A stretch of 41,704 bases of DNA, from assembly GCF_001186125.1 (NCBI RefSeq), contig NW_014040290.1:25322-67025 (forward strand). The letters are read 5' to 3'. Positions 859 to 41,704 of this stretch are shown here, one piece after another. How positions within the stretch are numbered: the first letter of the stretch is position 1; every line of letters begins with the position of its first letter. The stretch is from Sphaeroforma arctica JP610 (lineage: Eukaryota). Both the position numbers and the translations under genes were made by a program. Under the pieces are notes generated by a model, which saw nothing but the letters and a program-made list of their open reading frames with translations, was not told where the DNA came from and ran no database searches.

Positions 859-951
859 TCCCAAGCCTTGCACTTCCAGTTTCGCTGGCATGAAGCCGTT
901 CAGCTGTAGGGTATAGTCTGCGGATCAAGCCAGGCTTTGTACTCACGGGAT

Positions 952-8700: not shown

Positions 8701-8891
8701 AAACTATTTGTCCTCGACGACTGTCGTGCTTTTTTTTTGTCAATATTGAGTGTGCTTGGACACAGATCACTAAATAGCGATTATTTGGATTAGTAGATCT
8801 GCGATTATTTGGATCAGCAGATCTTAGAAACCATATCTACGTCCAATTGAGTTTATCAACATGATAAGATCAAGTCGTAGATGGTATATTT

Positions 8892-9613
8892 AAATCGACT
8901 TAGTCATGAAAAGATCCGTGTGATCGAATCAGTATAGAAAGACTTGTGACTATAGGTATTGGACTTGGTAGTACTTTGAAATAAACATAGTATAACAGTC
9001 GAATAAAAAAGTTAGGTATGCCTCGTAAAATAGCAGTCCTCTGAGGGATAGGAAGACTGCGACATTCCCCACATAAAATCCTCTCATATACTTATTCGCC
9101 AAATAAATTTTAGTTTAAAGTGAAGGAAAATATTCAAATCGACTTCATGAGAAGATCCGTGTGATCAAAATAGTACAAAAAGACTTGTTACTAAAGGTGT
9201 TGAACTTAATTGTATTTCGAAATAAACACGGCATAAAAGTCGAAAAAATAAAGTTAGGTAGGCCTCGTGAACTAGCAGTTACTCTGTGGGATTGTAAGAC
9301 TGGGACATTCCCTAAATATATTTCTCTTATATACTAATTCGCCGAAGGGATTTTAGTAAATAGTGAAGGAAAATATCAAATCGACTTCATGAAAAGATGC
9401 GTGTGATCGAAATAGTATAGAAAGACTTGTTACTAGAGCTATTGGACTTAATAGTATTTCGAAATAAGCATGGTATAATAGTCGAGAAAAAAAAGTTAGT
9501 TAGGCCTCGTGAACTAACAGTACACTGTGGGATTGTACGGCTGCGACATTCCCTATATAAACTCCTCTTATATACCAGTTCGCCGAAGGGAATTTAGTAA
9601 ATTGTGAAGGAAA
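8892..9613. repeat. Three-copy diverged tandem repeat, unit ~243 bp
   Basis: Units start with AAATCGACTT at 8892, 9136 and 9378. Each contains AAGATCCGTGTGATC-like, AAGTTAGG..GCCTCGT, GACATTCCC and GTGAAGGAAA blocks. Confidence 0.92.
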
Positions 9614-12108: not shown

Positions 12109-13544
12109 ACGTGAGCTTTGAATATAGTGTGTGTAGAAAATATCAAAATATTTTATGTCTCGTGCTGCCTTTTCTTGAAATCAAAACAATGGCCATACCC
12201 AATAGGAATTACACTAGATTACAATTCTCTCTTCCTATTGATCTTCCTAATGTTGTACACAGCGTTGTATAAATAACAGATATTCTTTTATATATTATAG
12301 CATGTATCCAAGGAGCCTTTGAACTGTACCACTACCCTGATATTAATGGATCTACTCTATCTAAAATATTGAGTCGCTCTGTATCATATTATTCACAATA
12401 CAAGACTGGTCTCGGACCTAAAAGAGTACTAGTGTGTAGTAAATAATCACATAACAAGATTTCCTCTTTGAAGAAGAAAAATTCTTCTTGTAGCGGGTAC
12501 CTGACATAGGAGAAGTACATGTTTACGGAGTTCTTTAAAACTGGAATACATTCACTTTTTATATTTATATGTTACAGCATTCATGTACACAGTCCATGTA
12601 CAATTGTTGGAACATTCATGTACACTCTGTGTGTATAAATGTTACAACATTCAAGGTACACTATTATACATAAATATTTCAACATTCATGTACAGAACGT
12701 AAAAGAAATATGGTTTTGATCAAAATAGCCTAGTTTTGGGAATCAGATAACACTGTAGTATACTTTCGAGCTAGGAAACTCTACAGTAGATGGTAGGTGG
12801 GGGGTTTTTTTTTGAAAACCTTAGTTTTCTTTGAAGTCATACAAGAGCAGCATGATCTATTGTGAAACAGGGCAATTGGAGACCTCCTGGCCAGTGAACT
12901 AGATGTGCTTGTCTATGCCAAATTGGGTGAAGAGTCCCGTACCAAGCCCAGCGACTAAATGCACTAGCTTGTGGAATCTCAAATTCTGATACTTGGGAAT
13001 TTAGGAATCTATCATCAATAAAGATAGTTGACTAAACGACTTCTTTAGTAGACTAAGGATCTAAATCTACAGAGCCACCCTTTTTATATGGCCTACCTCG
13101 CCTACAACTCTTTCGCTTCACATCCCTCCTCTGCTTAAATTACCCCCACTTCTCGGTAAATTTCACAGTAATCTCCCGTCCACTTATAACGGACTTCGCT
13201 ACTCAGAGTAACGATTATGTAAAGTCTCCTCCAATCATCAAACACCCAACGGTTGAGTTTACACCTCCCCAATGAACAAGACACGAGTGTAAAGCGTTGA
13301 TTCATTCACTCAACCATTTTCTAAGTTGCGTTTTTCAAAACTGGATTTCTTGCAAACTTAATATTTTTTTCAAAGTCCTCCACCTAGCCACCGAAAAATG
13401 CTCCTCCTCCGACAGCTCTAAGCCATCGTTGACTATCCGAGGCCTTCTCCGGGCAAGGCCAATGCTACAATCTCGAAAAAGAAAACGAAAGATTAAACCA
13501 AATGCTTTGTTCATCAAACCAACCATTTCCCCTGGACGATGAGC

Positions 13545-14536
13545 GTATTGCCGCCACCAGCTCACATGATTCCTGTACAGTCGTTACTCCCGCCCAGTAT
13601 ACTTATACAGCCACAACAAATATGGCTCCTTAAATTTCCATGAAAGACTCTTCTCCCCATTAGTATCCTCTATACACTGTTTAAGATGATCGAATGCAGT
13701 GTATGCATCTTTCTATCAATACGTACTTTATACATACAAAACCTATCCCTCATCAACTATGATTTCTCCAGCCTATCACCTTCCTTCGCGACTAATCTCC
13801 ACACCAACTGACCAGGGTGCCACTCAGGAGCTGCTCTTTTACACTTATCCACCGCTTGCAATTGTGGCTCCTTCGTCACTTCATCTGCTATTGCAACAGC
13901 TTTATCACGCACCGTGGTCTCACTCAAAACTTACATTCCCAACACGTCTAACAATTTCGATTGTATTACCGTATCTACTTGCAACATGTACTGATAACCA
14001 GTCACAAGATAATAAACTAGGTTAACATCAGCCGCATAATTTACGGTTGCATTACACCGTGGAATATATACATGCTGGCCACAGATTCTTCTCTCCAACA
14101 TTAAAACTCTTTGACACCCAATTCAAAACAGTGCGGAGGATTTTGCTCCGCCCTACCATTCCCTTGATGTTTATTGATAGACACCTAATGGTACGCCGCA
14201 CCTCTTTCCGCCCAGAAGCGCTTCCTTTCATCCGATGCCAACGGAACACCCTGATCGATCACTATATGCTGCGATGTACTCCAAGGCAACACTTACTGCT
14301 GCAGGAACTTTAAGACACCCTTCGTGTTTTTCTCACCTGGACAACATGGCCTACGTCATACCTTCCGTGAAATTAATAATAACCACAACTTCCTCGAACC
14401 CATGTACTGTTCTAGGTAAAGACAAATGGTCTGTCCCAATACATACACACACTCCAGACAGACGATCAGGTTTCATCAACAAGTTCGTTTCCCCATGCAA
14501 TCCTGAAACTTGCTGGCAGGCCACACAACCTTTCAA
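13545..14536 (-). pseudogene. Ty3/Gypsy DDE integrase remnant (CxxC, rve core, GPY/F module)
   Basis: Minus-strand fragments KGCVACQQ..IGTDHLSLPRTVHG..VVVIIN; HIVIDQGVPLAS..FWAERG..SINKHQGNGRAEQ; KSLSWKFKEPY..NHVSWWRQY, broken by stops and frameshifts. Confidence 0.8.
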
Positions 14537-14780
14537 TTTATTTCCAATAACGATAGTTAATTACTCGATTGCTCTAGTAGACTAAGGATCTAAGTCTACA
14601 GATAAGTCTACAGAGTAACCCTTTTTATATGGCCTACCTCGCTTACATCTCCTTCGCTTCACATCCCTCCTCTGCCTAAATTACCCCCACTTCTCCGTAT
14701 ACTCTCGTCCCCTTATAGCGAACTCTTTTATTCAGAGTTCAGATTCTGTGAAGTCTCCTTCAATCAATAACACCCGACGG

Positions 14781-15605
14781 TGTAATAAGCCGGGCCTCCA
14801 CATTAGACTCTATGTATAAACGTACTCTTAAGCAGTACGATAAACGTACTCTTAATAGTACGAGGAACTTAAGTTTCCTAAATGTACTCTTAATAGTACG
14901 AGGAACTTAAGTCTCCTAAATGTGCTCTTAATAGCACGAGGAACTTAAGTTTCCTAAAATGGTTTTTAATGGCTATACTAATTAAACCTTTTCCATTTAA
15001 CATATCAGATATTTGGATGAGGCCATTAAAAGGCCTCAGTAAAATACCAAACATAAAAGAGTTGGTCTAGTTCTATTAATAGAGCTTTATTTACTTTCCA
15101 ATTTTATTTATATCTGAATACTTCGGTAGCGAGATGGCTCAACCGAATATAGGTTTCTAGGGACTATTAACGTTACCTAGTTGATCCTCTGATAAGCCAA
15201 CCAGATCTGCCAGTCTGATGAAGGCTAAGTCGGTAATTCTTGATAGTGGCAAGTTATTGGTTAAGACAATAACTAAAGACGTCAAGAGTATTTTTATATA
15301 TATATGTAAAAAAAATTCTTCTAAAGATAGGATTTTATGAGTCTATCGGATTCGCCCCAGAATAGAGCGACAACGAAACACTAAATAAAATCCCTTCGGC
15401 GGAAACAGTACGGAGAGGATTATATATAGGCAATGTCTCAGCCTCACAATCCCTCAGAGTATTGCTGTTTTCACGAGGCAAACATAACTTTATTAAACGT
15501 CTCATTTCGTTTATTTATATCGATATTTACACGATAGATAGAATTTACCTCCGCGTTTATTTTTTCTAAGGCATTACTATCGCCTATATTAGACTGAATC
15601 TTACA
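14781..15605 (+). mobile_element. Solo LTR (copy A of the MTase-element LTR family) with 4-bp TSD ACGG
   Basis: Begins TGTAA and ends TTACA. ACGG lies at 14777-14780 and 15606-15609. The uninterrupted site CAACGGTTGAG is visible in the sister repeat at ~13247. Homologous to 21798-22651 (-) and 35220-35977 (+). Confidence 0.9.
14846..14959 (+). repeat. Three tandem 38-bp double-hairpin units inside LTR copy A
   Basis: GTACTCTTAATAGTACGAGGAACTTAAGTTTCCTAAAT-type units at 14846, 14884 and 14922; the other two LTR copies have one full unit. Confidence 0.9.
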
Positions 15606-19208: not shown

Positions 19209-21797
19209 GAAATTAAACTCCCATCATCATGTCTAATTCCCGAATGAGTCGTCGCCAGGAATACCTCAATGCAGAACGAGGTGTCGAAGGCGGTATATTG
19301 ATCGTCGTGGCACGACATGTCACCGTTCTAGTCAAGAGCCTGACCAACCTCAACTAGTGGCAACCCCCTACCTGCGTGCGTACCAGGAACGAGACAATGT
19401 GGGAGAATGTGTAGCTTGCAGCGACTCGTTGTCTGGCCCGTCTTCGGAGAGTGTCAGGTCATCATCAATTGATCAGTAGTCACGACAGCGGCCTCATTCT
19501 GCAGCGAAGGGTAATAATAATCCAGAACAATAAGGTTCGGGACAACGATCATCTGTAATTCAGAACAACAATGAACCGCGCAGCACTCAACCACGCCGTC
19601 CACTAGCGCCCACACCACGGACTAAGATATGTCTCACAAGAATCTGATACTCAGTCATCCTTCGGTGATCTCTTATCACTCCAAAACCTTGTACACGAGC
19701 AGGCGTGCGCTAAGCAGAATCCTCAGGGAGAGGAAGCGTTGAGGAACCTACACGACCGCTTGGGCACGAACCTACGCAGGAAGCAGTGACGCCAGAATCC
19801 CGAACGCGATTCAGCCGATAAGGTTGTACCTACACCACAGAAGCAAGTCAAGGAAATAACGTGCTTCCACCTACACCAGCAGTATTGAGAAGAGTCGTCA
19901 AGTACTACATGCCCGCATACTTAAGCCCAGCGACGAGCTATATCAGGCAACGGAAGACAACAACGGAGGACAACAATACAGTACGAGCAGACGCTCTACG
20001 CAGGTCACTAAAGACACTTCGAGCTACACTCGAATCCAAGCCAGTCAAGAAACGTCCCGTACCTTCGCCGCGCACCTGGCCCGACTATCCGTCCAATAGG
20101 TACCACCTGAACGATATCATGGAACGTGATACGAAGAGTGTTCTTCTAGAAGCATTTAAGAATGCACATATTGCAGGACTGGATGAAAGTTGGAGATTCA
20201 CATGGTTTCAAAAGGTGTTAACTACTTTAAAGCGGAACAATCAACACTGAATTATATACGGGACAACGCAGAACGTTGAAAGGCTTGGACTCCGCAGTTG
20301 CAGATAGAACAGATCTGTTTGCACGAAACGCAAGCTACGGTCGATCCCGCATTCCGCAAACTGACCAAGGGTCAAACTAGGAACATGCAGGTATCCATCA
20401 CGGAAGAAATGACTTAGCTGGTGGGGAACCATAGGGCAAGGGACCGATGCCAGTGTGACGCTGACTACAAGCAAACCTATTGAACCACTGTCTGGTACAA
20501 TTACTCGAAATGCGCTCGGGGGCGGACGTACGAACGTACACGACAGCTGCATTCACAATAGCAGTTGATGGAGACACATGAGCTACTCCAACTCTTGAGC
20601 CCCGACATACAAGAGGCACAACAAGGTACGACAAAATGTTTGCAGAACCGTGCGAGGAGAGACACGATATCTCGTACGGCTCGTTTGTGTATAAATAGCC
20701 GCGCAAATGCTCCAACCACATGACGTCAAGACCAGAACTGGTCACAACGTTCACAGACAGCAACGCCTACGACGTGTGCCGGCTGTCAGGGACAGGCACC
20801 ATCCGGCACAAGACATATATAGCATTCTGCCACCATCATCGCGCGCCTACACAGGGCGGTCACGTTAACCGCGTACACCAGAACGAGCAAGGACGTACAG
20901 AGGCACAACCGGCGCATTGTCCAGCAACTACGTTCACAACAAGACAAAGCCAAAACAACAGTACCGCCAGGCAGTTTTCAACTCACCAGTCGTTGTCACA
21001 ACCACAAGTGAACACAGTCACGCAGGAAGTGGACTTTGAACCTATCCCTGCAGCAACCAACGTAACCCGAGGACCAGTACAGAACGACACACAGGGCGCT
21101 TGGACATGTCTGAGGACAATCGAGGGGGGAGGGTATCTGAGTCAGATGTCAGCCTGACAATTGTATAAAACACTATCGATGCAGTTATGGGCATACAGGA
21201 CCCATTGTTGACATATGATAACCGAGTCCATACGCACATTCAGAGCGTTGATAGCCACGGGAGCGAACAGAAGTTGCATCTCACAGACATCCGCAGACCT
21301 TCAATGAAGGATTTGGTTATCACGAAACGAACAACCCCAACAACCACTATGAAGGTTCCTGTGCTTGCCGTGCCCACGTTTGAAAAGAAGGTACGGATGT
21401 GTTTAGATAAGCATGCAGTAAACGCATTGATTCCCGGCGACCAATTCTTAATCCCGAAGGTCAACGAACTGATCTCACAGCTGAAGAGCAACGAGTACTA
21501 TACAACGCTGGATATTTCCGCAGCTTATCACAGGCTACCGATACATCCAGACTCCCAGTACTTATTCAGCTTCACCCATGAGCGTTACCAATACTTATTC
21601 ACATCAGTACCGTTCAGCCTACACGTATTCACACAACAATTTCAACGCACACTTAGTAAAATACTTGACGGCCTGCCCGTTCATCACTATATCGACGACA
21701 TCGTTATGGCGAGTGATGATTACGATGAGCAAATCAAGACAGTACGAGAGGCTATTAGACTTTAAGCTTAACCCCGCTAAGTGCCACTTTGCAATTG

Positions 21798-22651
21798 TGT
21801 AAGTTTCGGTCTCTTCAGGCGATATTAACGTCTTAGAGTAGTTAAACGTAATAAAGTCTTCTAAAGCTCAAATGAAATTAAAGCAAAATAAACGTAATTA
21901 GTCTTTTAGTAAAGTTAGGTTTGCCTCGTGAAAACAGCAATACTCTGAGGAATTGTGAGGCTGAGACATTGCTTATATAATCCTCTCAGTACTGTTTTCG
22001 CCGAAGGGATTTTATTTAGTGTTTCGTTGTCGCTCTATTAGAAACTATGGTATGTTTTGTTAAGGCGAATCCGAGAGACTCATAAAATCCTATCTTTTAA
22101 AAAATAAAATAAAAAAGTACTCTTGATGTCCATAGGTATTGCATTAACCAATAACTTGTCACTTGTCAAGAATTACCGACTTAGCCTTCATCAGTCTGGC
22201 ACATCTGGTTGGCTGAACGGAGGATAAACTAAGCAACGCTAATAGTCCTTAGAAACCTATGTTCGGTTGAGCCATCTCGCTACCGAAGTATTCAGATATA
22301 AATAGATTTGAAAAGTAAATATAGTTCGATAAACTAAGCAACGCTAATAGTCCTTAGAAACCTATGTTCGGTTGAGCCATCTCGCTACCGAAGTATTCAG
22401 ACATAAAATAGATTTGAAAAGTAAATATAGTTCTATTAATAGAACTAGACCAAATCTTATGTTTGGTATTTTACTGGGGCCTTTTAATGGCCTTGTCCAA
22501 ATATCTGATATGTAAAAACAAATGGAAAAGGTATTAATTAATAGAACCGTTGAAACCCGTTTAGGAAACTTAAGTTCCTTGTACTATTAAGAATACGTTT
22601 ATAGTTTACGTACTGCTTAAAAGTACGTTTATAACATAGAGTCTAATGTGG
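21798..22651 (-). mobile_element. LTR copy B, antisense, inserted in the RT of element 1; 5' ~20 bp missing; internal ~105-bp tandem duplication (22223-22433)
   Basis: Reverse complement of copies A and C. TGTAAG at 21798 directly follows the CHFAI codons. Homology stops at GTCTAATGTGG (22651). Confidence 0.9.
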
Positions 22652-23029
22652 CAAAAACCGAACGAAGTGATCGGTGACCAATGGGTCGACGGAAAATAAC
22701 ATTACTTTGTAATATTTTTTCAGTAACACGTTGAACCATACGCAGCAAAACTATTCAAAACAGATGAAAGAGAGTTAGCACTGGTGTATGGATTGACAAC
22801 GCACTTCAGAAGACGGTCAACGGTTTGCAATCTTCACGGACCATAAAGCTTTGGTATACATGAATACTCAGCTTAAACTCACTCCGATGCTGAAGCTGTG
22901 GCGACATATCATCGCACCATTTAAATTTACCATATCACACATACGTGGGGAGAAGTATGCATTACCTGACATGTTGAGTAGGGTGCATGGAGATACCGCG
23001 GAGAGCAACAAACCCGAAATATTGTATAC

Positions 23030-23415
23030 GGACTGTTGGCAGCTATTCTTCAACTATTTCGACCAAGCTCAACAACATACGCTTCGGACCGAATGATATA
23101 GACGTATTCGTGGATCCAACAAACGTTTAGCTACCTTGGTTCTGGTCAAAGGATAAAGGGTGAAGAAGCCTTCGCGCACGACTGGACCATGGTAGATGGG
23201 TGGATGAACCCGCCATGGGAGAAGATACACAAGACGCTGCGAACGATATAAGCAGACAGGACAAGGGTAACAGTATGATTTCCCTGGTTACCGAGAGTGC
23301 CGTGGTTTGACTTGTTCAAGCAGCTGCTACAGTCAGAATCAGTGTTGACGCCGCGAACACCGCATACGTTTCCGAAGTATGATAAATACACATGGAATTA
23401 GATGCCATGGGATAG
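23030..23415 (+). pseudogene. Dam-like N6-adenine DNA methyltransferase domain of element 1 (frameshifted)
   Basis: Joined across frames: DCWQL..YF; FGPNDIDVFVDPTNV*LPWFWS; EEAFAHDWTMVDGWMNPPWEKIHKTL..P..PWFDLF. NPPW at 23207-23218. Confidence 0.8.
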
Positions 23416-25953: not shown

Positions 25954-28900
25954 ATGGTATGTATGCTACAACATTCGATTTTCAAACAGCATAATTACTT
26001 TGGAAAATGAGTGTTCAATAGGAGGGCTCTAAACGGAGAGTAGTGTGCGACCTGTGTATTCAATATAGCAGCTGATGTAGTATTGCCGTCACTTTCAGTC
26101 GTCCTGCAGTATTTGAGACCTAGTTGAGAGTCTGGTCTAGTCAGCTTGGAATACAATGATATGTGTTGAGTAGTATCGACTACCACATAAGAAGCATCAA
26201 CTGCCGACGTGTGCATATTGTGTTGATATGTTGTGTATCAGTATTGCCAACTCCTCAATGCTAAGCGGTTGCGTTGGAACAGTATATAACGCATATAATC
26301 GGGTGATATTGAATTAATAATAATACAAGGTCTTTCAAAAGTGCTATCACAAATTGCAGGTGCAACAGTTAACACCGAAACACAATATTGGTATTATAGG
26401 ATAAGATTTCGTCAAGTGAAGATGAGAAACTCTTCGGAGCCGTCTTCTCTGTGTCCGGCCCCGTTGTGGTCGCAGATGGCATGACAGGTGCTGCCATGTA
26501 CGAATTGGTATGTAGTAGTATGTACTAGAAAGTTCTTTTGTATGTTGCGACTTCTCATGTGCATTTGAACTATAATGTTTTCATACATATATCTGTTCGA
26601 AAGATGTGCTTGGATACCCTTACTTTTGGTGCGTGTCCACAACAGAATCTGAGTATATACCCGAGTTTATAAAACATATAATATATTAATATTGACTACT
26701 CTAGGTGCGTGTAGGTCACCAAGAGCTGGTAGGTGAGATCATTCGTCTCGAAGCCGACACAGCTACCATCCAGGTATACGAGGAAACCTCGGGTGTCACT
26801 GTAGGTGATCCCGTATTACGTACCGGAAAGCCCTTGTCATGTGAGCTTGGACCAGGAATCATGGACAATATATACGATGGTATCCAGCGTCCTCTGGAGA
26901 CCATTGCTACCCAAACAGACACCATTTATATCCCTCGTGGTGTAAACACAAATGCCCTAGATCGCGAGAAAATTTGGCACTTTGTACCCTCAGGTACGTA
27001 TTGTAATACATATGACCAGTTGAAAACTCGCACATGTATGCAAAATTTAAATTGGCATATGAATTTATCAAAATATTCACACACCCTCGCATGTATAGTT
27101 ACTTGTACGAACACGAACGATTGATATATATATCTTAATGTATAAACATATCATACATATTATATATATATATATATATATATACGAACGATTGATATAT
27201 ATATATCTTAATGTATATACATATACATACATACAAGTATGTATATATAACAATATATATATATATCTATATATATGTATGGTACATATAATTATATATA
27301 TATGTATATATATATATATACATATATATATGTATGGTATTAATATATCTATCTATACATTTATATATATATGCAAATATATATATATAGATATATGCGT
27401 ATAGGTATAAATAGATATATATATTTAGTTATATAAATAAATATATATTTTTAGTTATATAAATAAATATATATTTTTAGTTATATAAATAAATATATAT
27501 ATTTAGTTATATATATGCATATATTATATTTATATATCTATATATATATGTGTATATATAGTGATATACATAAATGAATATATGCATATATATATACATA
27601 TTCACATACACGCACGCACACATACATATATATATATATGCATATATATATTTGATATACTTATGTATATATACTATTGTATATATGTATTTTATAATTA
27701 ATAATATATATGTAAATATATATATATATATATATACTAATATAACTAAGAATGTATACGGGAATACATACGTGCATACATATATATTAATAGTAGGCAA
27801 ATATTTGTATCTATAATTATTGATTTATGATATACATGTATAAATATCTGTATATCTATATATACATATTTATAAATATGTATATATATCTGTATTTAGA
27901 AATACATATCTATCTATATACATTATACGCACGCACACAAACACACACATGTATATGTATATATATATACAACCACACACACACATATACATGTATATAT
28001 ATATATATGTGTGTGTATATGTGCATGCATAAATATCTGTATATATATTGATATATGCATATATATATATATATTATAAAACAGGATAAATATATATATA
28101 TAGATATGCATGAAACAAAGGATATATATATATATATGAACATATATATTTATATATGAACATATGTAAATATACACACGCGCACACACACACTTATATA
28201 TATACATACATATGTATATTTTTATATATATTTCTATACATATATACATGCTTATATATACATATCATGACGTGTCACACACACAGACACATATATATGT
28301 ATATTTTATACTTATTCGTATTCATAATTATATTTATATGAATGACACTGTATGGATAAGTTGTTAGTGGGGGTATGTTTATATCATTTTGCTTTATATA
28401 CACACATCCAAAGGAATGTTGGGATTCAGGGATGAAACTCGTACTTCTGAATGTTGTTGATGTTTATATGTTCGCTCTGATCCATAGAATACGTCTGTGA
28501 CGCCACACTTTTATCTGCTCTTCACAAAATTAGAATGCATGCATTTGCATGTGAGCATGCTGCTTGTGTTTACGCCAGCCGGGAGCACACGTATCCTACC
28601 TTATCAACAGCTTGTGACGTGATTGCACATCAACCTGTGTACGGAGAAGTACTTAATCGCCTCTAGGTTTGTTTTTGCGCGCGCGTGTAGATCAAGTGAT
28701 TTGACATTGTTCACTACCATTTGATCTTTGCGTATCTACTGTGCCCCGGGTGGCCTATCTCGCACTCGCACAAACTTTTAGCCTCGCCATCATCCTGGTA
28801 ATGAGTGGTTTTATCCATCCCTTGTCATGTATACGAAGCTCTGTCCGAAGCTGCGAATCACTTCCGTTTGTGTCTATAACGTCCTATACATTATCGTTTC

Positions 28901-31900
28901 GAAGGTAATTCAATGACCTACAACGATAACGGCAAAGTTGAGTGTAGAGCAATATATCTGTCCCATTTGTAGCCACACCAGCAACCAATGGGGCTTGTAC
29001 TCCGCCAATAGTGTACCAGATATAACTCCAGTGTCTTGTCGAGGTTGTGCTGTGTATGTATCTGAGTCACGACCCGCTCGAGGAATATATGTCTGACCAC
29101 CAATAGAGACAGACACAAATGACGTACTGTGTAGAGCTCAAGTCCCCACCAACTCGAGCCAACTCAGGCTAATACACACGTGGTATCGTCGCTGCTATAC
29201 AATTCGCACTGGGTTTTGGGTGTGCGTGCGAGGCTCTGCTTAGTTGACCTGCAGTCTCCTCCATTCTGACTATCAACCCCTCACCACCGTACTAAACGTC
29301 ACACCCTTGCGGATCACCCCTTTCTTGGACTACAGGCGTTAAAGCAGGCGATCACGTGACTGGTGGAGATGTCATTGGTACCGTACAGGAGAACACTCTG
29401 GTCCTGCACAAGATCATCGTACCTCCCCGTGCCAAGGGTACCATCTCATTCGTGGCACCTGAGGGTGACTACAATTTGACCGAGACGGTTATGGAGGTCG
29501 ATTTCAACAAGAAGACACACAAGTTCCAGATGTTCCAGGTAAGGGTTGGGCACGGGGATAGGATGATATCAATAGGTGTTGTAGGCGTGGATATGATGAT
29601 ATGGATAGGTTATAGGTTGGTGATATCAATTGGTGTTATAGGCGTGGATAGGTTGATATCAATAGGTGTTATAGACGTGGATATGTTGATATGAATAGAT
29701 GTTATAGGCGTGGGTAGGTTGAAAAGAATAGGTGTTATAGGCGTGGGTAGGTTGATATCAATAGGTGTTGTAGGCGTGGATAGGTTGATATCAATAGGTG
29801 TTGTAGGCGTGGATAGGTTGATATCAATAGGTGTTGTAGGCGTGGATAGGTTGATATCNNNNNNNNNNNNNNNNNNNNNNNNNNNNNNNNNNNNNNNNNN
29901 NNNNNNNNNNNNNNNNNNNNNNNNNNNNNNNNNNNNNNNNNNNNNNNNNNNNNNNNNNNNNNNNNNNNNNNNNNNNNNNNNNNNNNNNNNNNNNNNNNNN
30001 NNNNNNNNNNNNNNNNNNNNNNNNNNNNNNNNNNNNNNNNNNNNNNNNNNNNNNNNNNNNNNNNNNNNNNNNNNNNNNNNNNNNNNNNNNNNNNNNNNNN
30101 NNNNNNNNNNNNNNNNNNNNNNNNNNNNNNNNNNNNNNNNNNNNNNNNNNNNNNNNNNNNNNNNNNNNNNNNNNNNNNNNNNNNNNNNNNNNNNNNNNNN
30201 NNNNNNNNNNNNNNTTGATATGAATAGATGTTATAGGCGTGGTTAGGTTAATAAGAATAGGTGTTGTAGGCGTGGATAGGATGGTATCAATAGGTGTTAT
30301 AGGCGTGGATAGATTGTCAAGAATAGGTGTTATAGGCGTGGATAGGTTGATATCAAGAGGTGTTGTAAGCGTGGATATGTTGATAAGAATAGGTGTTGTA
30401 GGCGTGGATAGGTTGATATCAATAGGTGTTATAGGCGTGGATAGATTGACAAGAATAGGTGTTATAGGCGTGTATATGTTGATATCAATAGGTGTTATAG
30501 GCGTGGATAGGTTGATATCAATAGGTGTTGCGTGGATTGGTTGACAAGAATAGGTGTTATAGGCGTGGATAGGTTGATATCAATAGGTGTTATAGGCGTG
30601 GATATGTTGATATCAATAGATGTTATAGGCGTGGATAGGTTGATAAGAATAGGTGTTATAGGCGTGGATAAGTTGACATCAATAGGTGTTATAGATTGGT
30701 ACGATCCACGAGCGCAGTGCTAGAGAGCTTCATTGTGAACAGCTCTGTATATACATGTCTTCGCTTGTCACACCCAGTGTTGTCTCCTCTCACACACTCT
30801 CACACGCACTTACCCTCTCCTCCTGCCTCTCGCACTGAATAGGTATGGCCCGTACGTTCACCCCGTCCCGTGGTCGACAAGATGACGGCTGACTACCCTC
30901 TGCTGACCGGACAGCGTGTGCTGGACTGTCTGTTCCCCTGTGTGCAGGGTGGTACCACAGCCATCCCCGGTGCTTTCGGGTGCGGAAAGACGGTGATTTC
31001 TCAGGTGAGTGCTGATTTGTGATCACATGTATGATTCTATCTGTACATGGAGGGTGTATATATGATTATACCTGTATATTGAGTGTTTGCTGCGCATGCT
31101 GTGGACAGGTGGAGAGCGCGCACCAGTATGCACTACTGTGATGGGCAATGCAAGCGTTCAAAGGCTATGATAACCGCAAAGCTCAAGGCTATCGATTTCA
31201 ATGGTGTAGTATATAATAGCATGCTCGGCAAGCGACGGCTGTAGTGTGTGTGTGAGAAAACAGGCAGATGCTCATCACACCACGCAACACAACACACTAT
31301 GCATTGATCTGACTGACTCTCTCTTGCTGACTGATACCGTTCACTTGCTGCAGGCCCTGTCCAAGTTCAGTAACTCCGATGTGATCATCTACGTCGGGTG
31401 CGGTGAGCGTGGTAACGAAATGGCTGAGGTGCTGAAGGACTTCCCAGAGCTCACCATGACCTTCAACGGCAAGGAAGAGAGTATCATGAGACGTACCACA
31501 CTCGTAGCCAACACCTCCAACATGCCTGTAGCCGCCCGTGAGGCCTCCATTTACACCGGAATCACCCTGTCCGAGTACTTCCGTGATATGGGTTACAACG
31601 GTGAGTCAGGCACACGCCCTGTGCGAGGGCTGGAGTGTTGGTTGTCGCTGGACTAGAAACACTGTCTGATCTTGTGGTTTTGGTGCCTCATCTCTCAGAG
31701 TATTTGGTAATGTAAGCACACCCCAGTCCTCCTTTAACAACACACCCATCACACCTGTCTTACAATGCGTCTCGCCTCATCCACTCCGTGCTTGCTTATC
31801 CTAACGTACCACTCGTTTCCTCCCCTCCACCAATGACTGCCTATCCCTATCCCTCCAATAGTCGCCATGATGGCTGACAGTACCTCTCGTTGGGCCGAGG

Positions 31901-33542
31901 CTCTGCGTGAGATCTCCGGACGTCTGGCTGAGATGCCTGCTGATTCCGGATATCCGGCCTACCTGTCCTCACGTTTGGCCTCGTTCTACGAGCGTGCTGG
32001 TAAGGTGACCTGCATTGGTAACCCCAAGCGTGAAGGGTCTGTCACGGTCGTTGGAGCCGTGTCACCCCCCGGAGGTGATTTCTCTGATCCCGTAACCGCG
32101 TCCACCCTGTCTATTGTGCAGGTGTTCTGGGGATTGGATAAGAAGCTCGCCCAGGTTAGTACGGAATACACACACGCGCACACACACACACAATATATAT
32201 ATATATATACTTGTTTAATGCATGCGTTGACTTTTGTATGAATTGGTGTTAGGTGTTTGTAGACTTGCAGTCGCATGCAAAAGAGCCATTCCGCTCGTTC
32301 AGGTCCTCTTAACATCTACGAGAGCAACTTGTGTACACTTTCTGACGGATCGATCTGTTACTCAACGAGATACCATGGTGTTATATAAATTATATACTTA
32401 CGAAATAACACATACACCCACGTGCATGAGAAATAACATATACACACGCGTACACATACTTGCAGCGCAAACATTTCCCGTCCGTGAATTGGCTGCTGTC
32501 CTATTCCAAGTACACAAAGGCCCTCGAACCCTTCTACGAGAAGATGGACCCCGAGTTCCTGCGCGTGCGCACCCAGTGTAAAGAGATTCTCCAGGAGGAG
32601 GAAGATCTGGCTGAGATTGTGCAGTTGGTAGGTAAGAACTCGCTTGCCGAGGGCGACAAGATCACCCTGGAGATCGCCAAGCTCATCAAGGACGATTTCT
32701 TGCAGCAGAACGGTTACTCCTCGTACGATCAGTACTGTCCCTTCTACAAGACGTAAGTATCAGGCCGGTCGCGTACAGGCCATATCTAGTTTACAGATCC
32801 ATTCGGTGGGTGAAAGGGTGTTGGTGGTAGAATGGGTTATGGGGCTAGGTGTCTTCACTGCTGCACGGTATTAATGGCTAGTGCATTGCGAGGGGTACCT
32901 GTGCATGCTCCCTTTCACTCGTATTCATTCATTTATACCCATTCATGTCGAGTGTCGATTGGGAATCAACGAACGTTTGATGGTATTTGTTTTGTTTTGA
33001 GTTGACTGTGTTGCGGCGTCGCGACTATGTTCCTATTGCGCACTCATAACTGATTGTTCTGACATCACACCTACCGATCTACCTACATACATACATACGT
33101 GCATACACAACTCATTCACTGCCATTCTCTACAAACCAGCGTGGGTATGTTGAAGAATCTGATGCAGTTCCGTGACTTGGCTCGCCACTCCGTCGAGGCC
33201 AGCGCCAACTCCGAGACAAAGATCACGTGGGCTATCATTAGAGATCAGTGCAGTGACATTCTGAACCGACTTTCATCACAGAAGTTCTTGGTATGTGCAT
33301 GAACCAAGCCGCATTGTGCTTTATCACAGTACAGCCTAGGCTTGCATTGAATCAATGCATATAATGCATGTGTGCTGTCGACTCTTGTCTATCCCGTGTC
33401 TGTGAATGTCTGCGTGTGTTTAATTCACTATCTCGACTTGATCCGAATGCAGGAACCTCATGATGGTGAGGAGAAGAACAAGGAGGTACTCGCCAAGCTA
33501 TCCTCAGACATGGTCACAAAATTCAGAAACCTAGATGATTAG
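25954..33542 (+). CDS. ATP6V1A: V-type H+-ATPase catalytic subunit A; exons 25954-25956, 26400-26507, 26705-26993, 29336-29538, 30843-31004, 31354-31600, 31862-32154, 32466-32752, 33140-33290, 33453-33542 (610 aa)
   Basis: Conserved motifs [14 protein letters not shown], Walker [63 protein letters not shown]. All nine introns are GT-AG and phase-consistent (1833 nt). The ATG-only first exon is the least certain part. Confidence 0.96.
27120..28340. repeat. Degenerate (TA)n/(CA)n low-complexity tract in ATPase intron 3
   Basis: AT-dinucleotide-rich sequence; includes a short tandem of TTTAGTTATATAAATAAATATATAT near 27424-27510. Confidence 0.95.
29550..30700. repeat. 33-bp minisatellite (GATAGGTTGATATCAATAGGTGTTATAGGCGTG) in ATPase intron 4, spanning gap 29859-30214
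   Basis: Regular 33-nt period on both sides of the gap. Confidence 0.95.
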
Positions 33543-35219: not shown

Positions 35220-35977
35220 AGTTAACAAAGCCGGGCCTCCACATTAGACTCTATGTTATAAACGTACTCTTAATCAGTACGTATACTAAAAAGCGTACTC
35301 TTATTAGTACAAGGAACTTAAGTTTTCTAAATGGTTTTTAATGGTTTTATTAACTAATACCTTTTCCATTTTACATATCAGATATTTGGACAAGGCCATT
35401 GAAAGGCCCAAGTAAAATACCAAACATAAGATTTGGTCTAGTTCTATTAATATAACTATGTTTACTTTCCAACTTTATTTATATCTGAATACTTTGGTAG
35501 CGAGATGGCTCAACCGAATATCAGTTTCTAGGGACTATTAACGTTACCTAGTTGATCCTCCGATCAGCCAACCAGATGTGCCCGTCTGATGAAGGCTAAG
35601 TCGGTAATTCTTGATAAGTGGCAAGTTATTGGTGAAGACAATAACTAAGGACATCAAGAGTATTTTTCTTCTTCTTCTAAAGATGGGATTTTATGAGTCT
35701 CTCAGATTGGCCCCAACGAAAAATACCATAGTTTCTAATAGAGCGACAACGAAACACTAAATATAACCCCTTCGGCGGAAACAGTACTGAGAGGATTATA
35801 TATAGGCAATGTCTCAGACTCACAATTCCTCAGAGTATTGCTGTTCACGAGGCATACCTAACTTTACTAAAAGACTCATTTCGTTTATTTACTTTTAAAT
35901 TTTGATCTACTTAGACTTAACCTAAGCGTTTATTTACTCTAAGGCGTTGATACTGCCTTAATAGACCGAAACGTACA
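35220..35977 (+). mobile_element. LTR copy C, apparent 5' LTR of element 2
   Basis: Colinear with copy A from AAGCCGGGCCTCCACATTAGACTC to GACCGAAACGTACA. The 5' TG is degenerate. A PBS-like site and gag follow. Confidence 0.88.
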
Positions 35978-35985
35978 CATTTTAA

Positions 35986-35997
35986 TGTTAGCAAAGG
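35986..35997 (+). promoter_or_regulatory. Putative degenerate primer-binding site (initiator tRNA-Met)
   Basis: TGTTAGCAAAGG matches 10/12 to TGGTAGCAGAGG, the complement of the animal-type tRNAiMet 3' end, 8 nt after the LTR's terminal CA. Confidence 0.5.
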
Positions 35998-38900
35998 TAT
36001 TAACTACTTCGACTACTTAAACGTAAAGGTAGGTAACTACCACGATTTTTTTCCTAAGCACAGTCATTCCTTAGAAGAATAATACTGAAGTCATAAGTTA
36101 AGATAAAGACAGAGAATACGCCTGCAAAGAAACACAAGGCCGAACGTAACAAGATGGAGAGAGAAGCCGCTAGCACTGCAGCAGTTACCGCTGCCGCAGA
36201 AGCAGTCGCCGCTGCTGCGGATGCGTTTAACCTCACCGTAGCCGAAGCACTTGTCTCCAACAACAATATTCAGGACAATGCCTCGGATAAGGATGTAGCC
36301 ACTCCAATTAAGGAAACTACTCCTGCAGATAGAGCCCGAGGGCCAACTATTGCCTCAACTTCGAAACTTGCATTTACGAAGCCAAGAAGTGAGACAAGGG
36401 ACACGTCTCAAGACGCCCAAATCAATTCTTCTGACAAAACTCAGAATTATAGGGGACAAAGACGAATCTCAGAAACTACCTATACCTGAATCAGAAGAGG
36501 AAACAAGCTCAAGTGGCAATCCCGAATCTACGTCTGAGACCACTCAACCAACGCGCATAGGTAAGTTAACTACTGAAAACAGTTAGCCGCCCTTATGAAA
36601 GGCATGACTGTTGAACATGTAGATACAATGTATGGTTCAGGACAACATGCACAGCACTTACGCGAGCATGTTTCTCCGGGTACTACTGAAACCCGACAGA
36701 AGTGGACATAACGTCGACTGGCAATTAGGCCTGAAAAGTGTAAGCACCTGAGCGCTACACATGTGGCAGTTGAATCATATGTGCGCAGCGTATCTATACC
36801 TTTCGAGGTACTACCACCAGAACTTCAGGCTAATTACTTGCCTGTTCTGACACCCGGCCGTGAGTCACCCGTCCTTGAGAGTATTATAGACCCAGAGGCA
36901 GGTAGAAATACACCGCCACTCTTTTACCCAATTGGGATGACAATCGTCGTAAACCAGTTAAGACTGGGTATGTTATCCAGATGCATGAATCACCTAAGAT
37001 TATAATATCAACCACTATCCGAGGAACAGAGCACCGAAAGGCCTCTTGACCATTGACTTTACAAGGGATAATAGACACTCCCATAAACGTGTTAACGATG
37101 TCGAATTTAATCGCTTCGATCGCACCGCATTACACCAGCCCGCAGAGGATTTCTACTCTGACGAAGTGACCGAACTTAATAAATCGGTCGACGATTACAC
37201 CATTAAAATAAAAATCGCCCATGACGAGCACCGTGCTGATGACGAATCATATTTTGCTAATATGATCGCGATCAAGCAGAAGCGCATCGATCAGCTACTT
37301 CAGGCCCAACGTGGGCAAGACCACCGGGATAACCAGAAGTACAAGGGATAGATCAGTCCACTTAAGTCGAACTGGGATGCCAACAGCAAGCAGGTCGAGT
37401 TTATAAACAACCATGACCTCGACACGCTAACCTGTACGCTTATTGCGTTTACGGTCATGCTGGAGACGAATGATATCGCTCCCCAGCAATGGATTTCTGC
37501 TTTAATGCAGTCGTTTGACCCTACAGGAACAAGTTAACTTGATCCTGCAGCGACACCAGCATGAGCTAGACACTTGTCGAGACTGGCCAGCTGTGTGTTG
37601 ATTGGAAGCAAGGACATGCGCAGTCCAGGACTGAGTTTAATCTTGACTGAACCAGTTGAGAAAACTCCTATTCAGAGTTACATTCTGAAACTTGATGCTG
37701 GCCTTACAAAACTTTCAGATATAACAAAGGACAAGGCGCAGCGATGGTACCAGTTCCTGATTATGCATGTTTTCTGTAGGGATATAGGGAACAACGACCG
37801 TGAAAGTCTGTACACCGAGTTGTGACGTAAATACGCAACTGAGGCTCGAGACAAGGGACATGAAACAAAGTTTCATCTATCCCGACTTACGTGGGAACAG
37901 TTTTATGATACTATATCCACTCTTTTCCCCGCACACCGAGTACCCTCGCAGGGAAAGGCGGTAAATAAAAACCGCGCGAGCTCCCTGATCAAGGATACCT
38001 CTCACGCCAGACGTCAGATGATATACCTCATCAGACGCGTCCTAACCAGACACGTGCTTGCGACTCCACTCAATCAATGCAACCCAATAAACGGGCACGC
38101 GCGGAGCCGAAGGACAAGGAGCCTCCATTTAAGGAGATTAAGAAATGTGCCGACGCACAGTGTGGGCATGACAGGTACCAATTGACCCTTAACGGTTATT
38201 GGGATGGTAGACCTGCACCCACGTGTACACATTTTCTTACTAAGTAAGACAAGTGTGAGAAGACCAATGGCTATTACGCCAAGTCTTGCGGCAAGAAGCC
38301 CGACATTAGGTTAGAGCGAAAGTACTACCAGGTACAATCGTTACAAAGAAAATAGAACGACTCCTTAGATGAGTGTGTAATAATCCCTGTATATTGCGAC
38401 GGAAATAAAGTCCTTGCATTAATTAATCCTGATTCAGAAATTTCATTTATATCCGACCGCTTTGCATTAATGAAAGACATTGAAAGGCAAACTCAAACCA
38501 CTCACCTAATTTTAGCAGATGATAAAACTTCTAAGTGTGATACCATGGCCACAGATGTTAAAATCTCCCTGGCCGATGATAGAAATATCACGACTCAAGC
38601 TGTGATCGTTAAGATGTCACAGAAGTACGACATTATTGTCTGAATGAGCGATTTGCTCGCGTTAGGGATAACCGTAACAGGCTTACCCATCAACATAGGT
38701 CCATTAAAGTATCAGTCATACGATAATTGTCTAAAACCATATACACCACCATCGGACACAGTCAAGATATTAATTCCTGGCTTTGCCAATAAGATAATGG
38801 AACTTATATATTAATAAATAAGAAGATAAAAATAACCGACTGGGCGAAATTCCGCTTCAACGACGGATACGTCAGCCTTGACTTAACCAAGGTAGACTTT

Positions 38901-40208
38901 ACTAGGCACAAATGTCCTTCAAGAAACTATGTTTCTTGGAGACACGAAGTTGTAGATAAAGAATAAGTCGAGAAATAGCTATCCGATGGGGTAATCGAAA
39001 TCAATTACCAACAAACGCCAGTTAACTAAGAACTTTTGGCAGTTGATCAACACAACTCTGACGGAAAATTTAAGAAAGTCGGAGTATGTCTAGATATGAG
39101 CCCAATAAATAGGTTATTACCGACTCATAGTTTTCATCTTCCTCGTATAAACGAGTTACTGAGACGTATAGAAGATGCTACAGTGTTTATATCCATAGAC
39201 CTAACACAAGGGTATCATCAAATGCAAATTTATGAACCCCGTCGTAAGTACTTTAATTTTACCTGGAAAGGTAAACAATATAGGTTTAGAGGTGCACCTT
39301 TCGGGTTGCACTCCTTACCAGCATTCTTCCAACAAGTAAAGGAGGAAATATTTGCAGACATGCCTAACATGCAAGTCTATATAGATGACATAGTCATCTT
39401 TTCTAAGACTAAGGGCGAACATGCCGTATTAGTCAGACGAGTCCTTCAGAGACTCAACGAACAAAACTTCAAGATTAACGAGAAGAAATGTCACTTCGCA
39501 ATGAGCGAAATACAGCTTTTAGGCTATCGTATATCTAGGGAAGGTATTAAAATCGACCCCGGTAAGGTGGAACACCTATTAACACCAACTACAGGAAGAG
39601 ATGTAAACAGCATGTGTGGGTTTGTAAAATTCTTCTCAGATGGAGTACCACACTTAGGTGATTATCATAAATCTTTTCGACACTAAAGATGTCATAAAGG
39701 TAAACTAGGAGACTTGTGGACTAAGGAATGTGATGACGCCTTTAATGCACTCAAGCACGCAGTCCAACAAGCCCCTGTTGTACAAGGACCGGTCGATGGC
39801 GTGCCTTTTGAAATAGCAACGGACGCATCAGACTTAGCACTCGGAGGTGTACTATACCATGTTATAGATAATACACCTTGGTATATACAATTCTTTAGCC
39901 GAGTAATGAATGCATCACAGTTGAATTATCCAACTGTGAAACAAGAGCTACTAGCCATAGTAGCAGCTTTAACACACTTCCACGATTACTTATACGGAAC
40001 AGCTTTTACGCTATTGTGTGATTAGAAGTCCCTTCAATATATGAAGGAGATGAAGCCAGGCTCTCAAATACTGAGCCGATGGCATGATACAATATCAAAG
40101 CTTCATTTTGATATCAAACATCTACCAGGGATACAAAACCATTTACCGGATATGTTATCACGCTTCGTACCGGACTTTAGTAATTCCGTACGTGAGTTAC
40201 TAGCTACT

Positions 40209-40610
40209 GACTGGAAATGTAACCCCAGGTGGTTTGAACTGGCTCACAAGATATTTGAGCCACATACAATTGATATGTTTGCTGCACATCACAATGCACA
40301 ACTAAAGAACTATAGGACTTTAAATCATCATATAGGAGACGCTTTTCAACTAGACCTCTCCAAACATAATGCGTGGGCTAATCCACCATGGCAGTTAATT
40401 GCCCAATTATCAAATTATGTTCATATACACAAAGCTACCATCAAGTTGTGTTGCCCATTACGGAGTAAAGATCCATGGCTCAATAAATTAATAAGCATGA
40501 TATTATGCGAGCCAATATATTTAGATGGGGATATAGATACTTTCCTATATCAGAGTACCCGAGCCGCCCAGAAGACGCCCTGGAGACATACTATAATATG
40601 TCGTATAGGC
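40209..40610 (+). pseudogene. Dam-like N6-adenine DNA methyltransferase domain of element 2, in frame with the RNase H C-terminus
   Basis: DWKCNPRWF..FEPHTIDMFA..HNAQL..DAFQLDL..AWANPPW.LI..ATI..CP....PW; NPPW at 40380-40391. The domain itself has no stop codon. Confidence 0.88.
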
Positions 40611-41069
40611 CACATTGGAACAACCAAATGGACCCCTTCTGAGACCTTCCTTAACAAGGTCAAAGAATCACAATTTCCACTCTCTACTAGATTGAACGTT
40701 AAGCAGTTCAAAGGCAACACAGCTTGAAGTCTGTGCACAAGAAATACAATCTACTAATGACACTACATTTAAGAAGCGTCAGTCTCTAGCTAGGACTCTG
40801 TTTAGTAACATAGAGTCCGAGCCCGAGGTCTTTCAACCCATATTTTTAAAGGGATTAATGAAAGGTATTCCCAAAGTATATACACATAATACGACTGCTA
40901 AATAGTTCAGGTGTATCAAACGCACACGAGCGCAGTCATGACACTCATGCGAAAGAAGGACAGAAGTCTAGAAACACTACAGACTTAGAGACCACGCAAA
41001 TAGATTCTCAATACCCTACCTCTATTCTGGAGAAGCAGAAAGATGAAAACATTCTTATTTGGCTGACGC

Positions 41070-41485
41070 AAATCCACAAGCTGAAGCACCAAAACGTAGT
41101 AGACGCACTTAAAGATGCGAAACGAAATGGGATCGTGCACCCTAAGCTGGCAACTTTAGTTGACAGAGTATATCAGTCATGTACAGACTGTGATCTCAAC
41201 CAGGTTAAGCGCTATGGGTTCGCACCGCATAAGAGTGTGACTGAAGATGTTCCATGGCGCAGGGTCATCATTGATCTGGCTGACCTGCCTACGTCCGAGC
41301 ACACAGGCGACCTTTACGTATGTCACTTCTTTGATGTGGCGTCACGGTTTAACTTGCTCTATCCATTAAAGGATAAAAGTACGCAGACCGTGGTAGAATT
41401 ATGTTGCCAAGTCTTTGCTGACCACGGGTGGTCAGGTATCATGTGCACTGATATCGGTAGCGAGTTCTGCGATGACGTAAGTTAA
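41070..41485 (+). pseudogene. DDE integrase N-terminal half (HHCC + rve) of element 2
   Basis: IHKLKH..HPKL..V..VYQSCTDC..PWRRVIIDLADLP..FFDVASRF..YPLKDKS..TDIGSEF; it ends before the catalytic E. Confidence 0.9.
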
Positions 41486-41704
41486 CTTCAGACGCTTTTG
41501 ACAATCAGGACTATTTAAAGGCCTTTACAGAAAATGACGTAGACACAGGCTGAGATAGATAGCATGTTCTTATCGTCTGAAGGCACGGAAGTAAAAACTT
41601 ACTCACCAACAGCATTTATCCCGAGCTTTACTGCTCATCCTTCGTATGTTCAAAAAACATCGAAGCGTAAGGAATGTACATTATACAATATATATACATT
41701 ATAT

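What the first reader, a model, noticed from the sequence alone, without database searches (positions are those of the whole stretch)
38380..41485. Ty3/Gypsy LTR retrotransposon with a Dam-like N6-adenine methyltransferase between RNase H and DDE integrase
Seen: in ORF 40041-40727 the RNase H end (HLPGIQNHLPDMLSR) runs in frame into DW..F..PHTIDMFA..N..DAF..WANPPW..P..PW. A retropepsin lies upstream and an HHCC/rve integrase downstream, and the LTR family has TG..CA ends with a TSD. Established: NPPW/DPPY is motif IV of amino-methyltransferases, and an RT-RH-MTase fusion characterises DIRS elements, which use a tyrosine recombinase and lack protease and DDE integrase. Inference: this is a distinct PR-RT-RH-MTase-IN lineage that could 6mA-mark its own cDNA or insertion site, for example to mimic active chromatin or evade silencing. 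I do not know of this as a well-characterised architecture but cannot verify novelty. This copy is dead (stops, protease D to N).
Basis: partly seen in the sequence, partly recalled or inferred. Interest (0 to 1): 0.9.

Follow-up and report, generated by a model that had tools for sequence, protein, structure and literature searches.

The report
Dead DAM-carrying Gypsy retrotransposon, already described
This is a broken copy of a Gypsy-type jumping gene in a single-celled relative of animals that really carries an adenine-methyltransferase-type domain between RNase H and integrase, likely used by intact copies to mark their own nucleic acid, but a 2026 preprint already described this lineage in this species.

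Summary
Protease, RT, RNase H, a Dam-type domain (DMFA, NPPW) and a DDE integrase lie in that order. RNase H runs into the Dam domain in frame. It is not a chimera: two intact sister polyproteins (P0001, P0151) hold all domains in one ORF, the RT groups with Ty3/Gypsy rather than DIRS-like elements, and RT and Dam trees give the same clade with Abeoforma elements. A neighbouring host exon is 100% identical to a Sphaeroforma arctica protein. A May 2026 bioRxiv preprint names an 'Ichthyosporean DAM-LTR lineage' in that species, with raised 6mA but a negative dam- E. coli assay. This scan also noted such elements on other genomes. This copy is dead: stops, frameshifts, about 240 codons of integrase deleted, no 3' LTR in the window. 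Three small additions: (1) a second, unrelated DAM-LTR family lies in the same window; (2) the lineage keeps a degenerate C-terminal chromodomain, although the preprint says it lacks one; (3) the closest solved structure is the RNA cap methyltransferase PCIF1/CAPAM, so the substrate (cDNA, hybrid or RNA) is open. Verdict: already known, low interest.

The parts
35220..35977 (+). 5' LTR of the element (5' end decayed, ends ..TACA)
   Evidence: 82% over 750 bp to the solo LTR. The repeat boundary near 35229 and a diverged contig bridging 35896-36073 show the LTR-internal junction in another copy.
35978..38355 (+). leader and presumed gag region, fragmented (gag is inferred from position)
   Evidence: Repeated to the same degree as pol in 4 of 4 runs. 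No credible Pfam hit for the 4 ORFs tested.
38368..38808 (+). aspartic protease and spacer; catalytic Asp position reads Asn in this copy; stop at 38641
   Evidence: RVP_2 E 0.025; 46% to P0151 aa 20-166; other copies differ at this codon.
38808..39686 (+). reverse transcriptase (YIDD), 4 in-frame stops
   Evidence: RVT_1 7.4e-27; stops at 38964, 38976, 39027, 39684; trees.
39717..40163 (+). Ty3-type RNase H, stop at 40023
   Evidence: RT_RNaseH_2 4.5e-31 and RT_RNaseH 1.3e-20.
40203..40625 (+). Dam/PCIF1-clade N6-adenine methyltransferase domain: DMFA at 40272, NPPW at 40380-40391; in frame with RNase H
   Evidence: Dam 1.9e-5 to 3.7e-5; phrog_111 1.4e-4; model and fold matches; 67% to P0001.
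40690..41040 (+). variable linker, stop at 40725 and frameshifts
41040..41482 (+). integrase HHCC zinc finger and first two catalytic Asp; truncated
   Evidence: rve 1.7e-4; 40-44% to P0001/P0151.
41482..41525 (+). remnant of the last helix of the C-terminal chromo-like domain, joined after a deletion of about 240 codons
   Evidence: Local match to the P0001 C-terminus, score 42, reached by 0 of 300 shuffles; against P0151, 4 of 300. Other copies continue with integrase at 41480 (loose ends).
14781..15605 (+). solo LTR of the same family, TG..CA, 4-bp TSD ACGG
   Evidence: empty paralogous site near 13248
21798..22651 (-). third LTR copy (5'-truncated), inserted into the RT of element 2
21169..23413 (+). 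second, divergent DAM-LTR family: RT 21169-21800, RNase H end 22716-23000, Dam about 23025-23413 (NPPW); integrase not detected
   Evidence: tblastn; DAM HMM 1.2e-22 and no integrase hit downstream; RT in the same 99* clade.

Best explanation
This is a dead copy of a repeated Ty3/Gypsy LTR retrotransposon whose Pol carries an N6-adenine methyltransferase-fold domain between RNase H and integrase, and in intact copies that domain likely methylates adenine on the element's own replication intermediate (RNA:DNA hybrid or new cDNA) so that the insert would be read as active chromatin. Shown here: the anatomy; single-ORF relatives; co-inheritance of RT and Dam; RT-level conservation of the domain with the motif-I-like D-x-F-A and NPPW; a compact fold with no evident target-recognition domain. 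Inferred: the domain is packaged with Pol and held next to the nucleic acid by RT-RH or integrase, which would explain why it failed alone in E. coli. Host AMT1 would then maintain 6mA at ApT after insertion and keep the copy transcribed (the preprint's model). Confidence is about 0.97 for the identity and about 0.45 for this mechanism.
For: Single-protein RT-RH-Dam-IN order in 11 of 33 hits scanned with Pfam and 26 of 296 sequences by custom HMMs, near-duplicates included. RT clade of 13 rows with Abeoforma proteins: 97* and 99*. All 12 of its members with a Dam domain fall in one 19-row Dam clade, 98/81. Dam is as conserved as RT: window vs P0001 RT 66, RH 67, Dam 67%; P0001 vs P0004 RT 46, RH 43, Dam 47, IN 31%. 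NPP[W/F] in 16 of 18 clade sequences. None of the 40 listed variant sites (62 in all) falls in DMFA or NPPW. Best viral fold matches are phage DNA N6-adenine methyltransferases (E 4e-8, TM about 0.65, rmsd about 3). The preprint reports more 6mA-marked insertions and higher expression for DAM-LTRs than other LTRs in S. arctica and A. whisleri.
Against: No activity has been shown: the preprint's dam- E. coli assay was negative. The best solved-structure match is the RNA cap enzyme PCIF1/CAPAM (Z 10.0, rmsd 3.6, 145 aligned), followed by rRNA methyltransferases; T4Dam scores Z 7.5. Iyer et al. (PMC4738411) place the DIRS domain in the PCIF1 clade and call it likely inactive. The intact sister P0151 has CPPW; 8 of 51 DIRS-like and 5 of 13 other LTR domains have a non-Asn motif. 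The preprint's 6mA enrichment was counted at ApT, the host AMT1 target, so it is a correlation.
Confidence: 0.45

Rival explanations
1. The domain is a PCIF1/CAPAM-like RNA methyltransferase that would put m6A or m6Am on the element's genomic RNA (cap-proximal or internal), aiding stability, translation or packaging. DNA 6mA on the inserts would be a by-product of transcription.
For: Top 5 Foldseek PDB rows and the top VIA row are CAPAM; VIA ranks 2-13 are RNA methyltransferases, mostly of the KsgA/Erm/DIMT1 type. 20 of 68 aligned relatives hit Pfam PCIF1_WW at E<=0.1, best 1.7e-7. Iyer et al. derive the DIRS domain from PCIF1. A DNA-only E. coli read-out would miss it.
Against: 59 of 68 relatives hit phage Dam, best 9e-17, and the window's own domain hits only Dam. 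Phage DNA methyltransferase models outrank viral PCIF1-like models, so the PDB ranking may reflect the lack of a solved PF05869 structure. The 172-aa model is much smaller than CAPAM (about 480 aa), so CAPAM's extra domains are missing.
Confidence: 0.22
2. The domain is catalytically dispensable and works as an adenine-flipping or nucleic-acid-binding module or a PCIF1 mimic. Raised 6mA would then come from insertion into, or creation of, active promoters methylated by host AMT1, perhaps steered by the C-terminal chromo-like domain.
For: Negative heterologous assay. CPPW in intact P0151, and FPPV/HPPW/RPPW in other LTR relatives. Iyer's inactivity proposal. A chromo-like domain is retained in the clade.
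Against: Asn is kept in 16 of 18 clade members and 43 of 51 DIRS-like domains, together with D-x-[F/M]-A. Such conservation over about 45% overall identity fits catalysis.
Confidence: 0.3
3. The arrangement is a DIRS fragment nested in a Ty3 element, or a misassembly.
For: Dam and integrase are out of frame in this copy. No contig in the 4 runs spans the whole stretch. No whole genome was available.
Against: P0001 (1376 aa) and P0151 (1400 aa) are collinear single ORFs at 64-66% identity. A second family in the window has the same RH-Dam junction. The RT is separated from DIRS-like RTs by a 100* branch.
Confidence: 0.01

Closest known systems
Ichthyosporean DAM-LTR lineage (Fernandez-Moreno et al., bioRxiv 10.64898/2026.05.21.726589; whole main text read, supplements not available)
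   Same: Ty3/Gypsy element with a DAM domain and NPP motif; reported in Sphaeroforma arctica, Abeoforma whisleri and Pirum gemmata. The window's host exon is 100% identical to an S. arctica protein, and the closest named Dam relatives are Abeoforma proteins.
   Different: The preprint says the lineage lacks chromodomains; I find a degenerate one that Pfam misses. It treats the domain as a partial T4/E. coli-type Dam; my model is a compact, self-contained fold nearest to PF05869 phage enzymes and PCIF1. Whether this exact family is in its supplementary tables I could not see.
DIRS retrotransposon RT-RH-MT ORF (Iyer et al. 2016, PMC4738411, passages read)
   Same: Same methyltransferase family, placed directly after RNase H.
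   Different: Here there are a protease, a DDE integrase, TG..CA direct LTRs, a 4-bp TSD and a Ty3-type RT/RH. DIRS use a tyrosine recombinase (preprint text; absence of protease recalled).
PCIF1/CAPAM cap-specific adenosine methyltransferase (6IRX, 6IRV/6IRW)
   Same: Best solved-structure match to the domain (Z 10.0, 145 aligned, 13% identity).
   Different: CAPAM is a much larger cellular enzyme with a WW domain that acts on capped mRNA; the element's domain is about 140 aa inside Pol.
Phage DNA N6-adenine methyltransferases (Pfam PF05869, phrog_111)
   Same: Best profile and predicted-structure matches.
   Different: Stand-alone phage proteins, 15-21% identity.

Membership tests
Ty3/Gypsy LTR retrotransposon | pol order PR-RT-RH-IN | tested here: met
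Ty3/Gypsy LTR retrotransposon | RT groups with Ty3/Gypsy | tested here: met
   Best PDB sequence hits of P0001 are Ty3 (3e-71). Trees put it with Oryza, Chara and Haematococcus Ty3-type RTs, apart from DIRS-like RTs.
Ty3/Gypsy LTR retrotransposon | TG..CA LTRs and TSD | tested here: met
   Met for the family via the solo LTR 14781-15605 with ACGG. This copy's 3' LTR is outside the window.
Ty3/Gypsy LTR retrotransposon | primer-binding site and PPT | tested here: inconclusive
   No TGG-type PBS after 35977; the self-priming test gave only 8-9 nt matches.
Ichthyosporean DAM-LTR lineage | DAM domain with NPP motif inside a Ty3/Gypsy pol | tested here: met
Ichthyosporean DAM-LTR lineage | DAM clade shared with Abeoforma/Pirum/Sphaeroforma elements | tested here: met
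   19-row clade, 98/81, with three Abeoforma proteins. Pirum not sampled by name.
Ichthyosporean DAM-LTR lineage | ichthyosporean host | tested here: met
   V-ATPase A exon (96 aa): 100% to S. arctica, 95% to a EukProt protein labelled CFRG (Creolimax by recall), 84% or less to others.
Ichthyosporean DAM-LTR lineage | no chromodomain (as worded in the preprint) | tested here: inconclusive
   True by Pfam (no Chromo hit in P0001, P0003, P0004, P0007, P0008, P0012, P0034). A degenerate chromodomain is detected by custom HMM, profile-profile comparison and fold. Mostly deleted in this copy.
Ichthyosporean DAM-LTR lineage | raised 6mA and expression | not testable with these tools
   No methylation data; only contigs could be laid.
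DIRS | RT in the DIRS clade | tested here: not met
   'DIRS-like' is my label for unnamed RT-RH-Dam proteins lacking integrase; their recombinase was not checked.
DIRS | tyrosine recombinase instead of DDE integrase | tested here: not met
   rve integrase follows the Dam domain.
N6-adenine amino-methyltransferase | Rossmann-like fold with an NPP[Y/F/W] motif | tested here: met
N6-adenine amino-methyltransferase | catalytic activity and substrate | not testable with these tools
   The preprint's E. coli assay was negative.

The most novel reading that the evidence does not exclude
The ichthyosporean DAM-LTRs are cryptic chromoviruses with both a writer and a reader, and their 'DAM' is a PCIF1/CAPAM-type enzyme that methylates the element's own RNA (cap-adjacent or within the RNA:DNA hybrid) rather than double-stranded DNA. 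That would be a retroelement-encoded RNA m6A writer and would explain the failed E. coli assay.
Probability: 0.2. Interest if true: 0.7.

Novelty: already known. Interest (0 to 1): 0.2.

Why it matters
The architecture is interesting: a transposon that may write an 'active' mark on itself. But the architecture, the lineage, the host species and the hypothesis are all in a 2026 preprint, and this copy is dead. What remains useful is practical. Intact natural polyproteins (P0001, P0004, P0007, P0012) are good assay material. The PCIF1 kinship says RNA and hybrid substrates should be tested. The hidden chromodomain amends the published description and offers a targeting explanation for the 6mA enrichment.

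Tried and rejected
No whole genome is held, so a genome-wide tblastn for intact copies could not be run; protein databases and laid contigs were used instead.
Expression: no RNA holder was listed on record, and runs guessed as RNA are contigs only, so nothing is concluded.
The PDB sequence search with the Dam profile found nothing significant (PCIF1 at E 0.7).
Self-priming PBS test: inconclusive.
A chromodomain HMM built from non-clade proteins did not detect P0001 or P0151 directly (domain E>1). Direct hhalign to canonical chromodomains was weak (prob 5.8, E 0.0065); only the step through the clade profile was clear (prob 84, E 7e-6). Foldseek on the C-terminal model gave no hit at E<=0.001.
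The careful RT tree did not finish; the quick tree was used.
ApT/CpG composition of the element showed nothing notable.
No tblastx similarity between the gag regions of the two elements, and no integrase after element 2.
PMC12477816 and PMC9940879 (passages only) do not describe Dam in Gypsy elements.
Searches for a chromodomain in this lineage in print and for prior art returned only the preprint as relevant. The library lacks most subscription journals.
Sequence look-up in earlier findings gave nothing.
Full report
Observation. Pfam on 9 window ORFs gave protease (E 0.025), RT (7.4e-27), RNase H (4.5e-31), Dam PF05869 (3.7e-5) and rve (1.7e-4). The 4 upstream ORFs gave nothing credible. RNase H and Dam share ORF 40026-40727. 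The copy is dead: one stop in the protease frame, five inside the RT-RH frame, a stop at 40725 followed by frameshifts, Asn at the protease catalytic position, and a deletion of about 240 codons after 41482. That deletion joins the second integrase Asp to the last helix of the C-terminal domain. The window ends before any 3' LTR.

LTRs. Three copies of a repeat of about 750-850 bp lie in the window. The copy at 14781-15605 begins TG, ends CA and is flanked by ACGG on both sides; a paralogous unoccupied site near 13248 has ACGG once. The copy at 35220-35977 precedes the element. In the 4 runs laid, all 30 bins from LTR to integrase are covered by many divergent contigs, against a single low depth in the unique flank, and one diverged contig bridges the LTR end and the internal region. 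The family is therefore highly repeated; these depths give no copy number.

Not a chimera. P0001 (1376 aa) is collinear with the window, 66% identical over 630 aa. P0151 (1400 aa) is a second intact sister. A phmmer search of 1.84 billion representatives found 497 relatives of the Dam domain. I scanned 33 of the 150 listed with Pfam, chosen mainly for rank and length; 11 had RT, RH, Dam and integrase in that order in one protein. Custom HMMs found 26 such proteins among 296 sequences, near-duplicates included. The best named relatives are Abeoforma whisleri proteins P0002, P0003 and P0004. A second, divergent element in the window (21169-23413) has the same RNase H-to-NPPW junction.

Trees. 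The RT tree used 164 of 179 usable rows (15 near-redundant Haematococcus/Oryza rows dropped, after removing 11 cluster duplicates and rows under 75% coverage). Both window elements fall in a 13-row clade (97*) with the Abeoforma proteins, on the Ty3 side; 44 DIRS-like RTs form the other side (98*). Two rows labelled DIRS-like by architecture (P0002, P0006) sit in the clade and are likely truncated DAM-LTR proteins. A 48-row IQ-TREE mixture-model quick tree gave 99* for the clade and 100* for the DIRS-like split. In the Dam tree (97 rows, 144 columns) all 12 clade members with Dam fall in one 19-row clade (98/81), so RT and Dam were inherited together here. 'DIRS-like' is my label; those proteins are unnamed.

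Host and prior art. A 96-aa exon of the neighbouring V-ATPase A gene is 100% identical to the Sphaeroforma arctica protein. bioRxiv 10.64898/2026.05.21.726589 (whole main text read; supplements closed) defines an Ichthyosporean DAM-LTR lineage in S. arctica, A. whisleri and P. gemmata. It reports more 6mA-marked insertions and higher expression than other LTRs. It proposes that DAM marks RNA-DNA intermediates and recruits AMT1, and it reports that heterologous expression in dam- E. coli gave no 6mA. I found this paper before looking at earlier scan notes; 20 notes from at least 3 other genomes describe similar elements (8 shown, unchecked).

The enzyme. The AlphaFold model from a 68-sequence alignment is confident (pLDDT 89, pTM 0.84). 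In the PDB the best match is PCIF1/CAPAM (Foldseek 6e-5; VIA Z 10.0, rmsd 3.6, 145 aligned), then KsgA/Erm/DIMT1, with M.TaqI at 7.6 and T4Dam at 7.5. Among viral models, phage DNA N6-adenine methyltransferases rank first (4e-8) and giant-virus PCIF1-like proteins next (7e-5). Of 68 aligned sequences, 59 hit Dam and 20 hit PCIF1_WW at E<=0.1. This agrees with Iyer et al. (PMC4738411, passages), who put the DIRS domain in the PCIF1 clade and thought it inactive. Conservation argues for function: Dam identity equals RT identity in pairwise comparisons, and NPP[W/F] is present in 16 of 18 clade sequences, with one CPPW and one not parsed. Of 62 variant sites in the 581-bp Dam stretch, 40 were shown and I used 35 (5 rare in X1 left out). 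The 13 polymorphic sites were 8 synonymous to 5 non-synonymous; the 22 sites private to this copy were 7 to 15. That fits selection in the family and neutral decay in this copy, but the numbers are small. That D-x-F-A is the SAM-binding motif I is my inference from position.

Hidden chromodomain. An HMM built only from chromodomains of proteins outside the clade (78 sequences) hits the C-termini of P0004 (6e-9), P0165, P0276-P0284, P0007, P0008, P0034, P0271 and P0011 (5e-4 or better); P0012 and P0003 are marginal, and P0001 and P0151 are not detected. Reversed controls gave 0.45 at best. The clade profile matches canonical chromodomains (hhalign prob 98, E 7e-15), and P0001/P0151 match the clade profile (prob 84, E 7e-6). 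A model of the P0001 C-terminus aligns residues 72/84-139 to SUV39H1, Oxpecker, Rhino and CBX7 chromodomains (Z 5.8-6.8, rmsd 2.3 for the best) and residues 1-74 to SH3/Tudor-type barrels, including the foamy-virus integrase. These Z values are middling, and the alignment contained canonical chromodomains, which can bias the fold. P0001/P0151 have lost the conserved Trp residues, so methyl-lysine reading is doubtful there. The preprint's 'lacks chromodomains' holds only at Pfam sensitivity.

Mechanism and verdict. Most likely (0.45) the domain is a cis-acting methyltransferase for the element's replication intermediate, seeding host-maintained 6mA. A non-catalytic role (0.3) and an RNA substrate (0.22) remain open; a chimera is excluded (0.01). 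The element is a member of a described lineage in a described host, so novelty is 'already known' and interest is 0.2. The preprint's supplements, which I could not see, may already list this family and the odd architectures noted in passing.

Noticed in passing
window 19300-23413 (+): A second, divergent DAM-LTR family (RT about 32% to P0001, NPPW kept), split by an LTR of the first family; its integrase was not found.
   Followed up: partly
P0051: Dam domain (NPPF) directly upstream of a copia-type RT (RVT_2, 2e-65) in one 522-aa metagenomic protein: a possible Dam-Ty1/copia element, not mentioned in the preprint's main text (its RT tree used RVT_1). Single short contig; could be a chimera.
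   Followed up: no
P0022, P0072 and cluster members P0287-P0289: Polyproteins with an endonuclease/exonuclease/phosphatase domain, then Dam, then a divergent RT-RH-integrase (protease upstream in P0072). Their Dam is close to the ichthyosporean clade while the RT is on a long separate branch. May correspond to the preprint's odd Euglena group; not checked.
   Followed up: partly
P0036: Dam domain N-terminal to an apparent retropepsin (motif read by eye) in an 817-aa protein: another position of the domain in Pol.
   Followed up: no
P0151: Intact 1400-aa sister polyprotein with CPPW in place of NPPW.
   Followed up: partly
window 13006-14781: Direct repeat pair (13016-13253 / 14545-14781, 76%) around 1.3 kb of unassigned sequence; the solo LTR inserted into the second copy.
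   Followed up: partly
window 8886-9613: Three tandem units of about 242 bp, each containing about 100 bp similar to part of the LTR in inverse orientation.
   Followed up: no
window 26705-33542 (+) and 910-5742 (+): Host genes: intron-rich V-ATPase subunit A with a 33-bp minisatellite in an intron (29522-30779), and a RING/PHD-finger protein (motifs read by eye).
   Followed up: partly
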